Below are positions 58,635 to 61,584 of a DNA stretch of 64,000 nucleotides, piece after piece. Every line of letters starts with the position of its first letter. The stretch's first letter is position 1. The DNA comes from Acutalibacteraceae bacterium. GTDB lineage: Bacteria; Bacillota; Clostridia; Oscillospirales; Acutalibacteraceae. Made by a program: the position numbers and the translations under genes. The stretch covers positions 169 through 64,168 of the forward strand of contig JAZOWF010000064.1 of NCBI GenBank assembly GCA_045659065.1. Direction: 5' to 3'. The notes beneath the pieces are model-generated. The model searched no databases and was not told the DNA's origin. It saw only the letters and a list, made by a program, of their open reading frames with translations.

Positions 58635-58672
58635 ATTTTATCACAATACATCTTACAAACCGCTTACAAATT
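58635..58672 (-). promoter_or_regulatory. Promoter of the giant surface protein gene, with direct-repeat operator
   Basis: Minus strand AATTTGTAAGCGGTTTGTAAG ATGTATTG TGATAAAAT: two TTTGTAAG repeats 11 nt apart abutting the -35 position, then an extended -10. Confidence 0.55.
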
Positions 58673-58683
58673 AAGGAGTAAAT

Positions 58684-58717
58684 AAAAAAAAGACCGCTAA
58701 ATTTTCGGTCTTTTTTT
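58684..58717. terminator. Bidirectional rho-independent terminator after the response regulator gene
   Basis: A-run, AGACCG..CGGTCT, T-run. Confidence 0.7.
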
Positions 58718-58722
58718 GTAAT

Positions 58723-59502
58723 TTATTTGTTGTTTTTGCTCCAAAGCAGGCCGCAGGATTCGTCAGCCCAGCTGTACTGTGTCATATATTCACCCTGAAA
58801 CTCCGGCTGACCCGTTTTAAGATAGGAGTAATAGTCGCAGGAAATTTTACTTGTATCAACAGAATATAGATATCCGTTCTTCTTCAGAACATCCTCTGCT
58901 CCGACCTTTTCAAGAGCCTGACGCACATCAAGCAAAAGCTGATGAAAATAGTTTCTGTTGTTTTCCTTCGTTCCGTCCTCCCAAAGCGCCGCAGCTATCT
59001 CCTTTGAAGATACGTCCGCACCGTTGCGGTCAATAAGAAAGGCAAGCATTTCCTTGCTTTTTGTTCTTTTAAAGGTAAGCTTTTCACCGCCACAGGAAAC
59101 ATCAAAGTTACCGAAGCATTTTGCCTTAAGGATTCCTCTTTCAGTTTTCCTGCCCTTAATAACGTCAATTTCCTTTTGAACGTCCTCTGCTGAAATAGGC
59201 TTTATCAGATAACCGGAGGCATGTATTTTAAAGGCCGAAACTGCATATTCCTCATAACCGGTACAGAAAACAATCTTGCAGTCCGGATGAAGAGCAGTAA
59301 TTCTTTCCGCAAGACCTATACCGTTGATTCCACGCATATTAATATCAAGAAAAGCCACATCGGGTGTATTGATTTCAACCCAGTCAAGTGCCTCATCACA
59401 AATCGAAAAGCCCACTACCTCGTCTATATCCTCCGATGCCCTTACAGCCTTCAAAAGTGCGTAAAGCATAAGAGGTTCATCATCTATTGCTATTGCAATC
59501 AT
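58723..59502 (-). CDS. Response regulator: receiver domain plus SARP/OmpR-type winged-helix DNA-binding domain
   Basis: Receiver (IAIDDEP..DVAFLDINM). C-terminal CFGNFDV..GGEKLTF.RTKSKEMLAFLIDRNG..VSSKEIAAALWED..GYLYSVD matches the SARP-type trans_reg_C pattern. Confidence 0.75.
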   Translation of the reverse strand: MIAIAIDDEPLMLYALLKAVRASEDIDEVVGFSICDEALDWVEINTPDVAFLDINMRGINGIGLAERITALHPDCKIVFCTGYEEYAVSAFKIHASGYLIKPISAEDVQKEIDVIKGRKTERGILKAKCFGNFDVSCGGEKLTFKRTKSKEMLAFLIDRNGADVSSKEIAAALWEDGTKENNRNYFHQLLLDVRQALEKVGAEDVLKKNGYLYSVDTSKISCDYYSYLKTGQPEFQGEYMTQYSWADESCGLLWSKNNK

Positions 59503-61343
59503 CTGTCTGCCTCCTTAGGAATTTCAACTGTTATCTTGGTGCCTACACCGATTATGCTTTCAATGTGCAGAATACCGCCGCACATTGCTTCAAGTCTGCT
59601 TTTGATGTTTCTCAGACCAACGTGATTGTTCTGTCCGAGCTCAGCCACATCAAAGCCGACACCGTTATCCTTTACGCTAATACAGTAGCTGCTGTCGGTT
59701 TCATAGATTTTAACCTTGACTCTGCCGCCCTCTTCTTTTTTGAGAATGCCGTGCTTGATGGCATTTTCAACAATTGGCTGAATTGTTAGTGCAGGCAGAC
59801 TGAAATCACAGCAGGTCATTTCAGTGTCAAATTCAATATCGGGGAACCGTACCTTTTCAATGCTGATATAATACTCAGTGTGCTCAAGCTCCTTTGAAAC
59901 ACGAATAAGCTTGGGGCTGTCAAGCTCACTGAAATTACCTCTGAGATATTTTGAAAAATCATTAACGAGCTTTGCAGCCTTCGGCGGATCGAGCTCACAA
60001 AGCTGCTCAATGCTACCGAGAGTGTTATAAATAAAATGAGGATGAATCTGACTCATCAGAGTTGAAATGCGGCTTTGTACAAGCTCAGCATCAAGTGTGA
60101 TTTTCTCTTTTTCAAGCTGTTCTGCTTTTTTTGCAGCCTTGATGTTTTTAGGAACGATACGCAGGAATGCAATCATTGAAACGATAAAGCCTATAAGAAA
60201 ATAAATTTTTGAAATAAGACCCGTTTGCCATAAGCCGAAATATTCTGCCGCTAAATCAGCCAAAAATCCTGTCAGACCGACTGCTACAAAAAGTAATGAG
60301 AGCTTCTTTCTGCCTGCTGCACTTTTAAGTGAAAACAAAGCCAGCGCTATAAAGATTACGGCAGAGACAGCGGCACCAACAGCCCAGACAGCAATCATAT
60401 CGTAAAAATAAATCCTGCTGAAAAGAGAAATACCAACAAGTGCACTTATGAAAAGTCCGTATAATAAAGCTGCAATCTGCGCCGCCTTTTTCTTTTTGCC
60501 TGTATACAGTTCCTTCATAAGCACGAAAGCAAATAAGAAGTATGTTATAGCCGAAAGACCTGCCGTCATTGTGTTGACAATTACCGTATCGAACCACAGA
60601 TAAAAGGCTTCTGAGGTAAAAAGGAAAAATACACCTGCTGAAAGAATCAGAAGGCCTGCAAAAAAGGATGTTCTGAAGATACCTCTGTAAAGCAGGGCTG
60701 AGAAAATTGCAATACCGAGAACGATAAAGGCGGAAATAATGATTATTATTGCAAGCACCCTTTCACTCTGACCCGAACGCAAAGCAATTTTTTCAGAATA
60801 ATCACTTGCATAAAGCTTGATTGATGAAAGAAACTCATCAACAGCGGTTTCGTTTCCGAAACGGTGATAATTACGGATTACCGCTTCAAAATAACCATCC
60901 TCACCGAAGTATTCTATTACCTGACCCATATGACCGCAGAAATCCTCACCAATGACAGGATTTTCCGTGTCAAAAACATCAGCTATCTGACCGTTGTCGG
61001 TAAAAGCAAGATTTATATGGTTTAAGGAGAATGTCATCAGCGAGCCTTCAGTAAGATTTCCGATAAAGCTTCCGTCCTCCGGGTTGCAGATTTTAAGCAC
61101 ACCCTTTAACATAACATCGCCTTTGGTAGCAGATATATGCTCACCCTCAACAATCGGCTGCCACTCACCGTCACCGATTTTGTATTCACCGACTAATCTG
61201 ATATCGGGTATAATCGCCCATTCTGACTGAGAGTTGTTTACTATACCGCTGAAAAGCATTGCAAAGGATAATGCAAAAAACAGTACCACTGAAACAAAAA
61301 TCAGAATCTGCTTGTCATTTTTTATCTTCATTTGTTCTGGCAT
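59499..61343 (-). CDS. Sensor histidine kinase, LytS/YehU type (His_kinase PF06580-like + HATPase)
   Basis: HPHFIYNTLGSI H-box, NAIKHG, DNGVGF, GLRNI. Extracytoplasmic domain followed by about 6 TM. ATG 61343 with AAGGAG RBS. Confidence 0.8.
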   Translation of the reverse strand: MPEQMKIKNDKQILIFVSVVLFFALSFAMLFSGIVNNSQSEWAIIPDIRLVGEYKIGDGEWQPIVEGEHISATKGDVMLKGVLKICNPEDGSFIGNLTEGSLMTFSLNHINLAFTDNGQIADVFDTENPVIGEDFCGHMGQVIEYFGEDGYFEAVIRNYHRFGNETAVDEFLSSIKLYASDYSEKIALRSGQSERVLAIIIIISAFIVLGIAIFSALLYRGIFRTSFFAGLLILSAGVFFLFTSEAFYLWFDTVIVNTMTAGLSAITYFLFAFVLMKELYTGKKKKAAQIAALLYGLFISALVGISLFSRIYFYDMIAVWAVGAAVSAVIFIALALFSLKSAAGRKKLSLLFVAVGLTGFLADLAAEYFGLWQTGLISKIYFLIGFIVSMIAFLRIVPKNIKAAKKAEQLEKEKITLDAELVQSRISTLMSQIHPHFIYNTLGSIEQLCELDPPKAAKLVNDFSKYLRGNFSELDSPKLIRVSKELEHTEYYISIEKVRFPDIEFDTEMTCCDFSLPALTIQPIVENAIKHGILKKEEGGRVKVKIYETDSSYCISVKDNGVGFDVAELGQNNHVGLRNIKSRLEAMCGGILHIESIIGVGTKITVEIPKEADR

Positions 61344-61449: not shown

Positions 61450-61487
61450 ATATTATCACAAAACATCTTACAAAGTTCTTACAAATT
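61450..61487 (-). promoter_or_regulatory. Promoter of the kinase/regulator operon, with direct-repeat operator
   Basis: Minus strand AATTTGTAAGAACTTTGTAAG ATGTTTTG TGATAATAT, nearly identical to 58635..58672. Confidence 0.55.
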
Positions 61488-61540
61488 TATTCCAAAACAG
61501 ATATTTTTTATATATCAACGGGAATCAAGGTGTATCTGTA

Positions 61541-61584
61541 ACAAATAAAAGCAAGAGCGTCAACGCCGACGCTCTTGCTTTTTT
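61541..61584 (-). terminator. Rho-independent terminator of the small ORF
   Basis: GCAAGAGCGTC..GACGCTCTTGC (11 bp) followed by TTTTATTT on the minus strand. Confidence 0.7.

What the first reader, a model, noticed from the sequence alone, without database searches (positions are those of the whole stretch)
58635..58672. Near-identical promoter modules with 11-bp-phased TTTGTAAG direct repeats upstream of the giant surface protein gene and of the adjacent two-component operon
The two minus-strand sequences are:
- 58672..58635: AATTTGTAAGCGGTTTGTAAGATGTATTGTGATAAAAT.
- 61487..61450: AATTTGTAAGAACTTTGTAAGATGTTTTGTGATAATAT.

Both have two TTTGTAAG repeats whose starts are 11 nt apart. The promoter-proximal repeat ends 11 nt before an extended -10 (TGATAAAAT / TGATAATAT), so it occupies the -35 position.

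The response regulator encoded between the two sites (58723..59502) has a SARP/OmpR-type winged-helix output domain. That family is known to bind direct repeats with 11-bp periodicity overlapping -35 and to activate transcription. The sequence therefore predicts an autoregulated two-component system whose main target is the 1711-aa surface protein.
Basis: partly seen in the sequence, partly recalled or inferred. Interest (0 to 1): 0.62.

Follow-up and report, generated by a model that had tools for sequence, protein, structure and literature searches.

The report
Response-regulator docking sites at five promoters
Two copies of TTTGTAAG, 11 bases apart and at a fixed distance from the -10 box, mark five promoters in this uncultured gut Clostridia genome and are very probably where the neighbouring two-component regulator binds to switch on its own operon, two giant secreted proteins and two small operons; the mechanism is familiar, but nobody has studied this regulator family.

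Summary
Both quoted sequences are exact. A scoring matrix built only from sites in other genomes finds five such promoters in this 2.19-Mb Acutalibacteraceae assembly (27-49 bits; next best 14 bits). They precede the kinase/regulator operon, the 1711-aa protein, a 1275-aa secreted protein, a GNAT-STAS operon and a three-gene operon starting with a 178-aa protein.

In 41 related genomes the double repeat occurs 2-7 times in the six that have the regulator and 0-1 times in the other 35. The 178-aa target gene is confined to the same six genomes, so regulator, boxes and targets are inherited as one module.

In 67 of 80 loci with regulators 52-92% identical, a related double box (TTTGT[A/C]AN twice) lies just after the regulator gene. 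In 52 of 66 the -10 hexamer starts exactly 11 nt after the proximal 8-mer.

The regulator's output domain folds like the SARP activators AfsR and EmbR but has only a two-helix stub of their activation domain. The box geometry matches the AfsR afs box.

Most likely the phosphorylated regulator binds as a tandem dimer and activates promoters that lack a -35 element. No binding or transcript data exist. This is a new variant of a known kind, of moderate interest.

The parts
61464..61485 (-). Site 2 box: two 11-bp units, TTTGTAAGAAC and TTTGTAAGATG, upstream of the kinase/regulator operon.
   Evidence: Scores 49.0 bits with the foreign-site matrix. Invariant in 9 orthologous promoters whose flanks have diverged.
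61450..61455 (-). Site 2 -10 hexamer TAATAT, preceded by TGTG (61459..61456). No -35 hexamer lies at 16-18 bp.
61489..61496 (-). Possible third, degenerate unit TTTGGAAT, 11 bp upstream of the distal repeat of site 2.
   Evidence: 2-mismatch match at 61478..61496. Partly conserved as TnGGAA in G002, G016 and L031. Weak evidence.
61547..61582 (-). Intrinsic terminator of the upstream gene; it separates site 2 from upstream transcription.
59499..61343 (-). Sensor histidine kinase, 614 aa. It has one N-terminal transmembrane helix, an outside domain of about 150 aa, about seven more transmembrane helices, then PF06580 His_kinase and HATPase_c. Its end overlaps the regulator's start by 4 nt.
58723..59502 (-). 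Response regulator, 259 aa. The receiver is intact (D7 D8, D53, T81, K101). It is followed by an OmpR-type winged helix and a two-helix stub of the SARP activation (BTA) domain.
58683..58710 (-). Hairpin GACCG-N9-CGGTC plus a T-run: the terminator of the two-component operon, conserved in orthologues.
   Evidence: Read directly; conserved. The consensus scan did not call it because its loop has 9 nt.
58649..58670 (-). Site 1 box: TTTGTAAGCGG and TTTGTAAGATG, upstream of the 1711-aa protein gene.
   Evidence: Scores 49.3 bits. Invariant in 8 orthologous promoters.
58635..58640 (-). Site 1 -10 hexamer TAAAAT, with TGTG at 58644..58641. The predicted start is near 58628, giving a 5' UTR of about 24 nt with GGAGG.
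   Evidence: The transcription start is inferred, not measured.
53469..58604 (-). Target gene: a 1711-aa secreted protein with a signal peptide, Listeria-Bacteroides repeats and a hydrophobic/amphipathic C-terminal tail. It has no LPXTG motif.
46492..46513 (-). Site 3 box, degenerate: CTTGTAAGCGC and TTTGTAATAGT.
   Evidence: Scores 26.9 bits. A box lies at the same place in front of the orthologous gene in G002, G009, G012, G016 and G024.
46479..46484 (-). Site 3 -10 hexamer TATAAT, preceded by TGTG.
43934..46444 (-). Site 3 operon: a 178-aa membrane-anchored protein (45908..46444), a GltD-like NAD(P) oxidoreductase (44621..45883) and a Pr6Pr membrane protein (43934..44608). The gaps are 24 and 12 nt, and a terminator follows at about 43905..43870.
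   Evidence: Co-transcription is inferred from the spacing.

Best explanation
The 22-bp element consists of two 11-bp direct repeats. In each, the first 8 bp (TTTGTAAK) are conserved and the last 3 are loosely MRS. It is the operator of the response regulator encoded at 58723..59502.

Proposed mechanism:
1. The membrane kinase (PF06580 type, signal unknown) phosphorylates D53 of the receiver.
2. Two regulator molecules then bind head-to-tail, one per repeat, on one face of the DNA at about -42 to -21.
3. This places them where a -35 element would be. These promoters have a good -10 with an upstream TGTG but no -35.
4. As with PhoB and with SARPs such as AfsR, the bound dimer substitutes for -35 recognition and recruits the housekeeping RNA polymerase.

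In this genome the element drives five transcription units:
- the kinase/regulator operon (positive feedback);
- the 1711-aa secreted repeat protein;
- a 1275-aa cysteine-rich secreted protein;
- a GNAT-STAS operon;
- an operon of a 178-aa anchored protein, an oxidoreductase and a Pr6Pr membrane protein.

What is shown: the sequence element, its statistics, its conservation, its fixed register to the -10, its restriction to genomes that carry the regulator, and the SARP-like fold of the output domain. What is inferred: binding by this regulator, activation rather than repression, the transcription starts, and the operon extents.
For: 1. Specificity. A matrix built from sites in other genomes finds exactly five sites in the 2.19-Mb assembly at 27-49 bits, against 14 bits for background.

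2. Architecture. All 30 sites in six species have a -10 starting 10-11 nt after the proximal 8-mer. In 28 of the 30 an open reading frame starts 33-142 nt downstream in the same orientation; the other two (L021, L028) have the orthologous gene start in that range, broken by a homopolymer frameshift.

3. Footprint. In alignments of the orthologous promoters, only the two repeats, the A that follows them, the TG/-10 region and the ribosome-binding site are invariant. The flanks are scrambled or carry indels.

4. Co-occurrence. The six genomes with the regulator hold 30 strict boxes, 2-7 each. The other 35 genomes hold 4 in all, each with a T-rich spacer that the motif never has at position 11. 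Boxes also lie on contigs away from the two-component genes, which implies a factor acting in trans.

5. Family-wide pattern. In 67 of 80 loci with regulators 52-92% identical, a double box lies within 330 nt after the regulator's stop codon. Elsewhere in those loci there are only 10 matches in 580 kb. The -10 starts exactly 11 nt after the 8-mer in 52 of 66. Box variants (AAG, AAC, CAT, CAC) follow the regulator clades.

6. Protein. The receiver's active-site residues are intact. The best structural matches of the output domain are AfsR and EmbR (TM 0.63-0.74 over the whole 139 aa), ahead of PhoB-type domains (TM about 0.5 over 85 aa). The best sequence-profile hit is EmbR.

7. Geometry. It equals the published SARP rule: two 11-bp repeats of which the first 8 bp are contacted, the 3' repeat 8 bp from the -10, and the box at -40..-19 (PMC10936776).

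8. No -35 hexamer lies at 16-18 bp. A one-base-precise register to the -10 is what an activator that touches polymerase needs; simple occlusion would not require it.
Against: - There is no experimental datum: no binding assay, no transcript ends, no expression data. RNA runs holding the window were not found, and contigs of an R. bromii-like relative gave no information on transcription starts.
- The -10 with its TGTG (-16 region) could be strong enough to work without an activator in Firmicutes, so a repressor role is not excluded.
- The 178-aa target gene is confined to the same six genomes as the regulator. The co-occurrence therefore reflects inheritance of a whole module and does not by itself single out the regulator as the binding protein.
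- The activation domain that mediates most AfsR-polymerase contacts is reduced here to two helices.
- One large clade has unlike half-sites (TTTGTAAG and TTTGTCAT) for a single regulator. That weakens any simple reading of the variable positions.
Confidence: 0.72

Rival explanations
1. The same regulator binds the boxes but acts as a repressor. It would sit across the -42..-21 region of promoters that are constitutively active through their TGTG-extended -10, blocking polymerase until the signal removes it.
For: The promoters have good -10 hexamers with an upstream TGTG, and such promoters can work without a -35. The BTA activation domain is cut down to a stub.
Against: The spacing to the -10 is fixed to the base in 52 of 66 family sites. 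That spacing, and the head-to-tail arrangement, are identical to SARP and PhoB activator sites. Occlusion would not need such a register. No site overlaps the -10 or the start. Every site lacks a -35.
Confidence: 0.13
2. The element is recognised by some other factor of the same accessory gene set, such as an unrecognised transcription factor or an alternative sigma factor that reads TTTGTAAG as its -35. The link to the response regulator would then be only genomic hitch-hiking.
For: The regulator, the boxes and at least the 178-aa target gene all occur in the same six genomes, so co-occurrence alone cannot tell them apart.
Against: The spacing of TTGTAA to the -10 is 12 nt for the proximal repeat and 23 nt for the distal one, which fits no known sigma architecture. 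Across 80 loci from many genera the one constant neighbour of the box is the regulator gene, immediately upstream, while the downstream genes vary. The box variants track the regulator clades. A tandem 11-bp repeat is the known binding mode of exactly this fold.
Confidence: 0.08
3. The similarity is only shared descent: a promoter cassette copied around the genome by duplication, with no selection on the repeats themselves.
For: In G024 contig C199 the cassette was copied together with the last ~45 codons of a regulator gene. G000 contig C75 starts with a similar tail.
Against: The repeats are invariant while the 3-bp spacers, the flanks and the leaders differ at every site and in every species. 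The boxes precede unrelated genes. The same architecture persists at 52% regulator identity with altered repeat letters.
Confidence: 0.03

Closest known systems
SARP activators and their promoters (AfsR with the afs box of afsS; also ActII-ORF4, DnrI; EmbR structure)
   Same: Both have an OmpR-type winged helix followed by BTA-type helices, and the best fold matches of the output domain are AfsR and EmbR. The operator is two 11-bp direct repeats with the first 8 bp conserved. The 3' unit ends 7-8 bp from the -10. The box sits at about -42..-21, against -40..-19 for the afs box, and the promoter has no usable -35.
   Different: This protein has an N-terminal phospho-receiver and is paired with a membrane histidine kinase. 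Its BTA domain is a two-helix stub of about 45 aa with no Pfam BTAD hit. It comes from Clostridia, not Actinobacteria. Its targets are surface and membrane proteins, not antibiotic clusters. No biochemical data exist.
PhoB and the pho box (OmpR/PhoB family)
   Same: Both are receiver plus winged-helix regulators that, once phosphorylated, bind head-to-tail to two 11-bp direct repeats. These replace the -35 at a fixed distance from the -10 (own knowledge for PhoB). The fold matches the PhoB effector domain at TM about 0.53. Positive autoregulation of the two-component operon is also shared.
   Different: Pfam Trans_reg_C scores below its threshold (18.2 against 26.2 bits). Extra C-terminal helices are present. 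The receiver is closest to LytR/BtsR receivers. The kinase is of the PF06580 type, not the HisKA type.
LytS/YesM-type two-component systems (PF06580 kinases paired with LytTR or AraC-type regulators)
   Same: The kinase has PF06580 and HATPase_c behind a polytopic membrane sensor. The receiver is most similar to those of LytR and BtsR.
   Different: The output domain is a SARP-like winged helix, not LytTR or AraC.
'Two-component SAPR family response regulator' (the JGI/COG3947 annotation class: REC, wHTH, BTAD)
   Same: Homologues at 62-63% identity carry this name in JGI. The domain order is the same.
   Different: This is an annotation label only. The paper library held no described operator, regulon or mechanism for it. 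The full-length class has a complete BTAD (own knowledge), whereas this protein keeps only a stub.

Membership tests
SARP family (Streptomyces antibiotic regulatory proteins) | OmpR-type winged-helix DNA-binding domain | tested here: met
   The AF2 model of residues 121-259 has pLDDT 85 and shows a four-strand sheet, three helices and a wing. Its six best PDB matches are AfsR and EmbR. The best profile hit is EmbR, E 0.0095.
SARP family (Streptomyces antibiotic regulatory proteins) | Complete bacterial transcriptional activation domain (BTAD, PF03704) after the winged helix | tested here: not met
   Pfam gives no BTAD hit. Only two helices (residues 223-230 and 246-257) follow the wing. They align with the start of the AfsR/EmbR BTA domain.
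SARP family (Streptomyces antibiotic regulatory proteins) | Target sites are direct repeats with 11-bp period, the 3' repeat 8 bp from the -10, overlapping the -35 region | tested here: met
   The geometry holds at 30 sites in six species and at 52 of 66 family sites. The rule is taken from PMC10936776. Only the sites were tested in silico; binding was not.
SARP family (Streptomyces antibiotic regulatory proteins) | Shown to bind the repeats and activate transcription | not testable with these tools
   This needs EMSA or footprinting and in vitro transcription.
OmpR/PhoB-family response regulators | Receiver domain plus Trans_reg_C above the Pfam threshold | tested here: inconclusive
   Response_reg scores 75.9 bits. 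Trans_reg_C scores 18.2 bits against a cut-off of 26.2. The full-length fold search does return VanR, PrrA, DrrB and KdpE.
OmpR/PhoB-family response regulators | Cognate kinase of the HisKA (EnvZ/PhoR) type | tested here: not met
   The kinase has PF06580 His_kinase (73.9 bits) and no HisKA domain.
LytS/YesM-type two-component systems | PF06580 kinase with a translationally coupled regulator | tested here: met
   One search shows the domain; the kinase stop and regulator start overlap by 4 nt at 59499..59502.
LytS/YesM-type two-component systems | LytTR or AraC-type output domain | tested here: not met
   Neither domain is found; the output domain is a winged helix.
COG3947 'SAPR family' response regulators (REC-wHTH-BTAD) | Match to the COG3947 model | not tested
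   No COG library was available. JGI gives this name to homologues at 62-63% identity.

The most novel reading that the evidence does not exclude
A large, uncharacterised class of two-component regulators of gut and rumen Clostridia, including cultured Ruminococcus bromii ATCC 27255, works like the SARP activators, which in the papers found here are described only for actinobacteria, replacing the -35 of its target promoters. These regulators combine a LytS/YesM-type kinase, a LytR-like receiver and a SARP-type winged helix with only a stub of the activation domain. Box positions 6 and 8 (AAG, AAC, CAT, CAC) and residues 183/184/187/191 on one face of the recognition helix, plus the wing, would form a specificity code. 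That code would keep parallel regulons of surface proteins, STAS switches and Pr6Pr membrane proteins insulated from each other.
Probability: 0.4. Interest if true: 0.7.

Novelty: new variant of a known kind. Interest (0 to 1): 0.5.

Why it matters
This gives a precise, testable regulon for a two-component family that is abundant in gut and rumen Clostridia (5396 database relatives at E <= 1e-5) and for which the paper library held no experimental work.

The family appears to control very large secreted proteins. Such proteins probably shape how these uncultured bacteria attach to particles, hosts or each other.

It also suggests that the SARP way of activating transcription, described so far for actinobacterial antibiotic clusters, is used elsewhere. 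Here it would be used by phosphorylation-controlled regulators in Firmicutes that carry a much smaller activation domain. That bears on which SARP-polymerase contacts are essential.

The 22-bp box with its fixed register is a simple tool for predicting regulons in metagenome-assembled genomes. R. bromii ATCC 27255, which has two such promoters, offers a cultured organism for testing.

Tried and rejected
- RNA evidence for the transcription starts. No RNA run holds the window; only DNA runs from bovine, pig and other gut and manure metagenomes were listed. For the R. bromii relative only assembled contigs were available. They span the promoter without informative ends.
- Standard two-hexamer promoter. 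The scan finds no -35/-10 pair at either site. TTGTAA lies 12 or 23 nt from the -10, so it is not a -35.
- The 2322-aa protein on contig C9 as a target. It is rejected because two terminators and about 400 nt separate it from the box-driven GNAT-STAS operon.
- The extra strict-pattern hit on G000 contig C15, and the single hits in G006, G011, G021 and G040. All have T-rich spacers, which the real sites lack. The C15 hit has no -10 and scores below 12 bits.
- Literature. Searches for COG3947/SAPR regulators, receiver-SARP fusions in Firmicutes and the box words found nothing relevant.
- Mutual information between box class and regulator residues. The top positions are 183, 184 and 191 on the recognition helix and 207-210 in the wing. 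Shared ancestry confounds this, and the clade with unlike half-sites contradicts a simple code. I keep it only as a hypothesis.

Full report
**What is in the sequence**

Each holds two TTTGTAAG octamers whose starts are 11 nt apart, followed by TGTG, one base and a -10-like hexamer (TAAAAT or TAATAT).

- Site 2 lies after a strong terminator (61582..61547), about 100 nt before the start of a 614-aa histidine kinase (59499..61343).
- The kinase gene overlaps by 4 nt the start of a 259-aa response regulator (58723..59502).
- A hairpin plus T-run (58710..58683) follows the regulator gene.
- Site 1 comes next, and 30 nt after its -10 the 1711-aa secreted repeat protein begins (53469..58604).

**Is it more than chance?**

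In the window, the double octamer with up to two mismatches occurs four times against 0.13 expected. One of the four is a third, degenerate promoter at 46513..46495. In the whole 2.19-Mb, 102-contig assembly the exact double octamer occurs four times, where the single-octamer frequency predicts about 0.006.

To avoid circularity I built a 38-column scoring matrix from 25 sites found only in other genomes and scanned this genome. Five sites score 26.9-49.3 bits. The next best scores 14.1, and the best in a reversed-genome control scores 13.9.

The five sites precede:
- the kinase/regulator operon;
- the 1711-aa protein;
- a 1275-aa cysteine-rich secreted protein on contig C75;
- a GNAT acetyltransferase plus STAS operon on contig C9;
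- a 178-aa membrane-anchored protein.

The 178-aa gene is tightly followed by a GltD-like oxidoreductase and a Pr6Pr membrane protein, and then by a terminator. The 2322-aa protein downstream on C9 is separated from the box-driven operon by two terminators, so I do not count it as a target.

**Correction of the geometry**

The proximal octamer ends 11 nt before the -10 hexamer. TTGTAA is therefore 12 nt (proximal) or 23 nt (distal) from the -10, and neither can serve as a sigma-70-type -35 at 17 +/- 1. The consensus scan calls no two-hexamer promoter at either site. The columns where a -35 would lie read (A)G-M-R-S-T-T.

If the -10 is placed at -12..-7, the distal octamer covers about -42..-35 and the proximal one about -31..-24. 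Treated as two 11-bp units, the downstream unit ends 7-8 bp before the -10.

This is the published SARP arrangement: direct repeats at 11-bp period, the 3' repeat 8 bp from the -10, the afs box at -40..-19, and protein contacts on the first 8 bp of each 11-bp unit only (PMC10936776). The logo here shows the same 8 + 3 pattern.

**Comparative evidence within the genus**

The window's relatives are labelled Acutalibacteraceae bacterium or uncultured Clostridia, and are metagenome-assembled genomes from animal and human guts. DNA runs holding the window are mostly bovine gut metagenomes.

Of 41 related genomes, six (this one plus G002, G009, G012, G016 and G024) encode the regulator at 88-100% identity. 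The pattern TTTGTAAK-N3-TTTGTAAK occurs 2-7 times in each of those six, 30 times in all. It occurs 0-1 times in the other 35, 4 times in all. The backwards-read control pattern gives only 3 matches in all 41 genomes.

The four stray hits have T at spacer position 11, which none of the 30 genuine sites has.

All 30 sites have a -10 starting 10-11 nt after the proximal octamer. In 28 of them an open reading frame starts 33-142 nt downstream in the right orientation. The other two (L021, L028) have the orthologous gene start in that range, but a homopolymer frameshift breaks it. Many sites lie on contigs away from the two-component genes.

In alignments of the orthologous promoters, the only invariant islands are the two repeats, the following A, the TG/-10 region and the ribosome-binding site. 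The flanks are unalignable, and the leader of site 2 carries a ~70-nt indel.

One caveat. The 178-aa target gene is confined to the same six genomes, always with a box in front of it. Regulator, boxes and at least this target are therefore inherited as one accessory module, and co-occurrence by itself does not prove which protein reads the box.

**Comparative evidence across the family**

The regulator has 5396 database relatives at E <= 1e-5. JGI names some of them 'two-component SAPR family response regulator'.

I examined 80 loci from many gut Clostridia with regulators 52-92% identical, including Ruminococcus bromii ATCC 27255. In 67 of them a double box of the form TTTGT[A/C]AN-N3-TTTGT[A/C]AN lies within 330 nt after the regulator's stop codon. 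The rest of those loci hold only 10 matches in 580 kb, mostly the kinase-upstream boxes of the window's own clade. In 52 of 66 the -10 starts exactly 11 nt after the proximal octamer.

The repeat letters vary by clade: AAG/AAG, AAG/CAT, AAC/AAC, CAT/CAT and CAC/CAC.

The genes behind the box vary but recur. They include large secreted proteins, the 178-aa protein family, STAS proteins, the GNAT, and above all the Pr6Pr membrane protein.

A box upstream of the kinase, implying autoregulation, is mostly restricted to the window's own clade. R. bromii ATCC 27255 has two CAC-type boxes.

**The regulator**

The receiver has the full set of active-site residues (D7, D8, D53, T81, K101). It is most similar to LytR/BtsR-type receivers, which fits the PF06580 (LytS/YesM-type) kinase.

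Pfam detects Trans_reg_C only below threshold, at 18.2 against 26.2 bits.

AlphaFold models (pLDDT 84 for the full length, 85 for residues 121-259) show a four-strand sheet, three helices, a wing hairpin and then two more helices. The full-length model matches OmpR/PhoB regulators. The output domain alone matches AfsR and EmbR best: six top hits, TM 0.63-0.74 over the whole query. PhoB-type effector domains match only the first ~85 residues, at TM about 0.5. A sequence profile of the domain finds EmbR first, at E 0.0095.

The protein is therefore a receiver fused to a SARP-like DNA-binding domain whose BTA activation domain is cut down to a two-helix stub. It fails the 'complete BTAD' criterion for SARP membership and the 'HisKA partner' criterion for OmpR/PhoB membership, but it resembles both in how it should work.

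**Mechanism proposed**

Phosphorylation by the membrane kinase lets two regulator molecules bind head-to-tail to the two 11-bp units. There they replace the missing -35 and recruit the housekeeping polymerase. The kinase has one transmembrane helix, an outside domain of about 150 aa and about seven further helices; its signal is unknown.

The main argument for activation rather than occlusion is the one-base-precise register to the -10 across nearly a hundred sites. The SARP/PhoB geometry and the uniform lack of a -35 point the same way.

Repression remains possible (about 13%), because the TGTG-extended -10 might work unaided and most of the BTA domain is missing. I rate recognition by another factor at about 8% and neutral copying of a cassette at about 3%.

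**Specificity hypothesis**

Mutual information between box class and regulator alignment columns is highest at residues 183, 184 and 191 and in the wing (207-210). Residue 187 ranks lower but lies with 183 and 191 on one face of the recognition helix, at i, i+4 and i+8.

This is what a read-out code would look like. However, shared ancestry confounds it, and the clade with unlike half-sites argues against a simple code.

**Novelty and literature**

The mechanism is of a known kind. I found no paper describing an operator, regulon or mechanism for receiver-SARP regulators of Firmicutes.

Earlier notes of this scan report the same family and the same conclusion in other genomes. They are AI notes and I do not count them as independent evidence.

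I rate this a new variant of a known kind, of moderate interest. The regulon prediction is solid and gives clear experiments, with a cultured relative available.

Noticed in passing
window 53469..53560 (C-terminus of the 1711-aa protein); G000 contig C75 5111..5200: The two giant box-controlled proteins end in similar amphipathic tails (...LNWFQKIIKAIKDFFAKLFGKNK and ...SSIFWKIIRIFWKLFRM...) and have no LPXTG motif. A third protein, on contig C83, shares 60% identity with the last ~117 residues of the 1711-aa protein. This may be a shared anchoring or sorting module.
   Followed up: no
L011 (G024 contig C199) 1478..1701; G000 contig C75 9111..9217: In G024, only the last ~45 codons of a regulator gene, then a terminator and a box, sit in front of a giant-protein gene. 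The promoter cassette was evidently copied together with the regulator's 3' end. The 35-codon regulator tail at the end of C75 (86% identical to the window's) may be the same kind of remnant, or part of a second two-component system lost in an assembly gap.
   Followed up: partly
G000 contig C9 9747..11000; window 46536..51414: Single-domain STAS genes are recurrent box targets: the GNAT-STAS operon here, and L024, L028, L047, L094, L096 and L099. The window carries a sigma-less partner-switching operon between site 1 and site 3. The regulon may feed a phospho-switch partner into that system.
   Followed up: no
window 61489..61496 (-): A third, degenerate unit TTTGGAAT lies 11 bp upstream of the distal repeat of the autoregulatory promoter. 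It is partly conserved as TnGGAA in three orthologous promoters.
   Followed up: partly
L021 ~716 (G002 contig C60 ~15716): The G002 orthologue of the 178-aa target gene has an A9 tract directly after its ATG that breaks the reading frame; A8 would restore it. A similar A-run problem affects the STAS gene in L028. This is either a sequencing error or slipped-strand variation.
   Followed up: no
L107 4383..4420; L111 (R. bromii ATCC 27255 contig C36 ~20474..20490): Cultured Ruminococcus bromii ATCC 27255 has a family member at 52% identity and two promoters with TGTCAC-GCA-TTTGTCAC-GCCC boxes. They precede a 113-aa membrane protein and a 260-aa protein. In one metatranscriptome contig (X1) the promoter segment occurs twice, about 4.1 kb apart.
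   Followed up: partly
window 53404..53468 (-): The hairpin after the 1711-aa gene (GGTCAGG-N12-CCTGACC) has no T-run. Read-through into the two orphan genes and the partner-switching operon downstream is possible.
   Followed up: no
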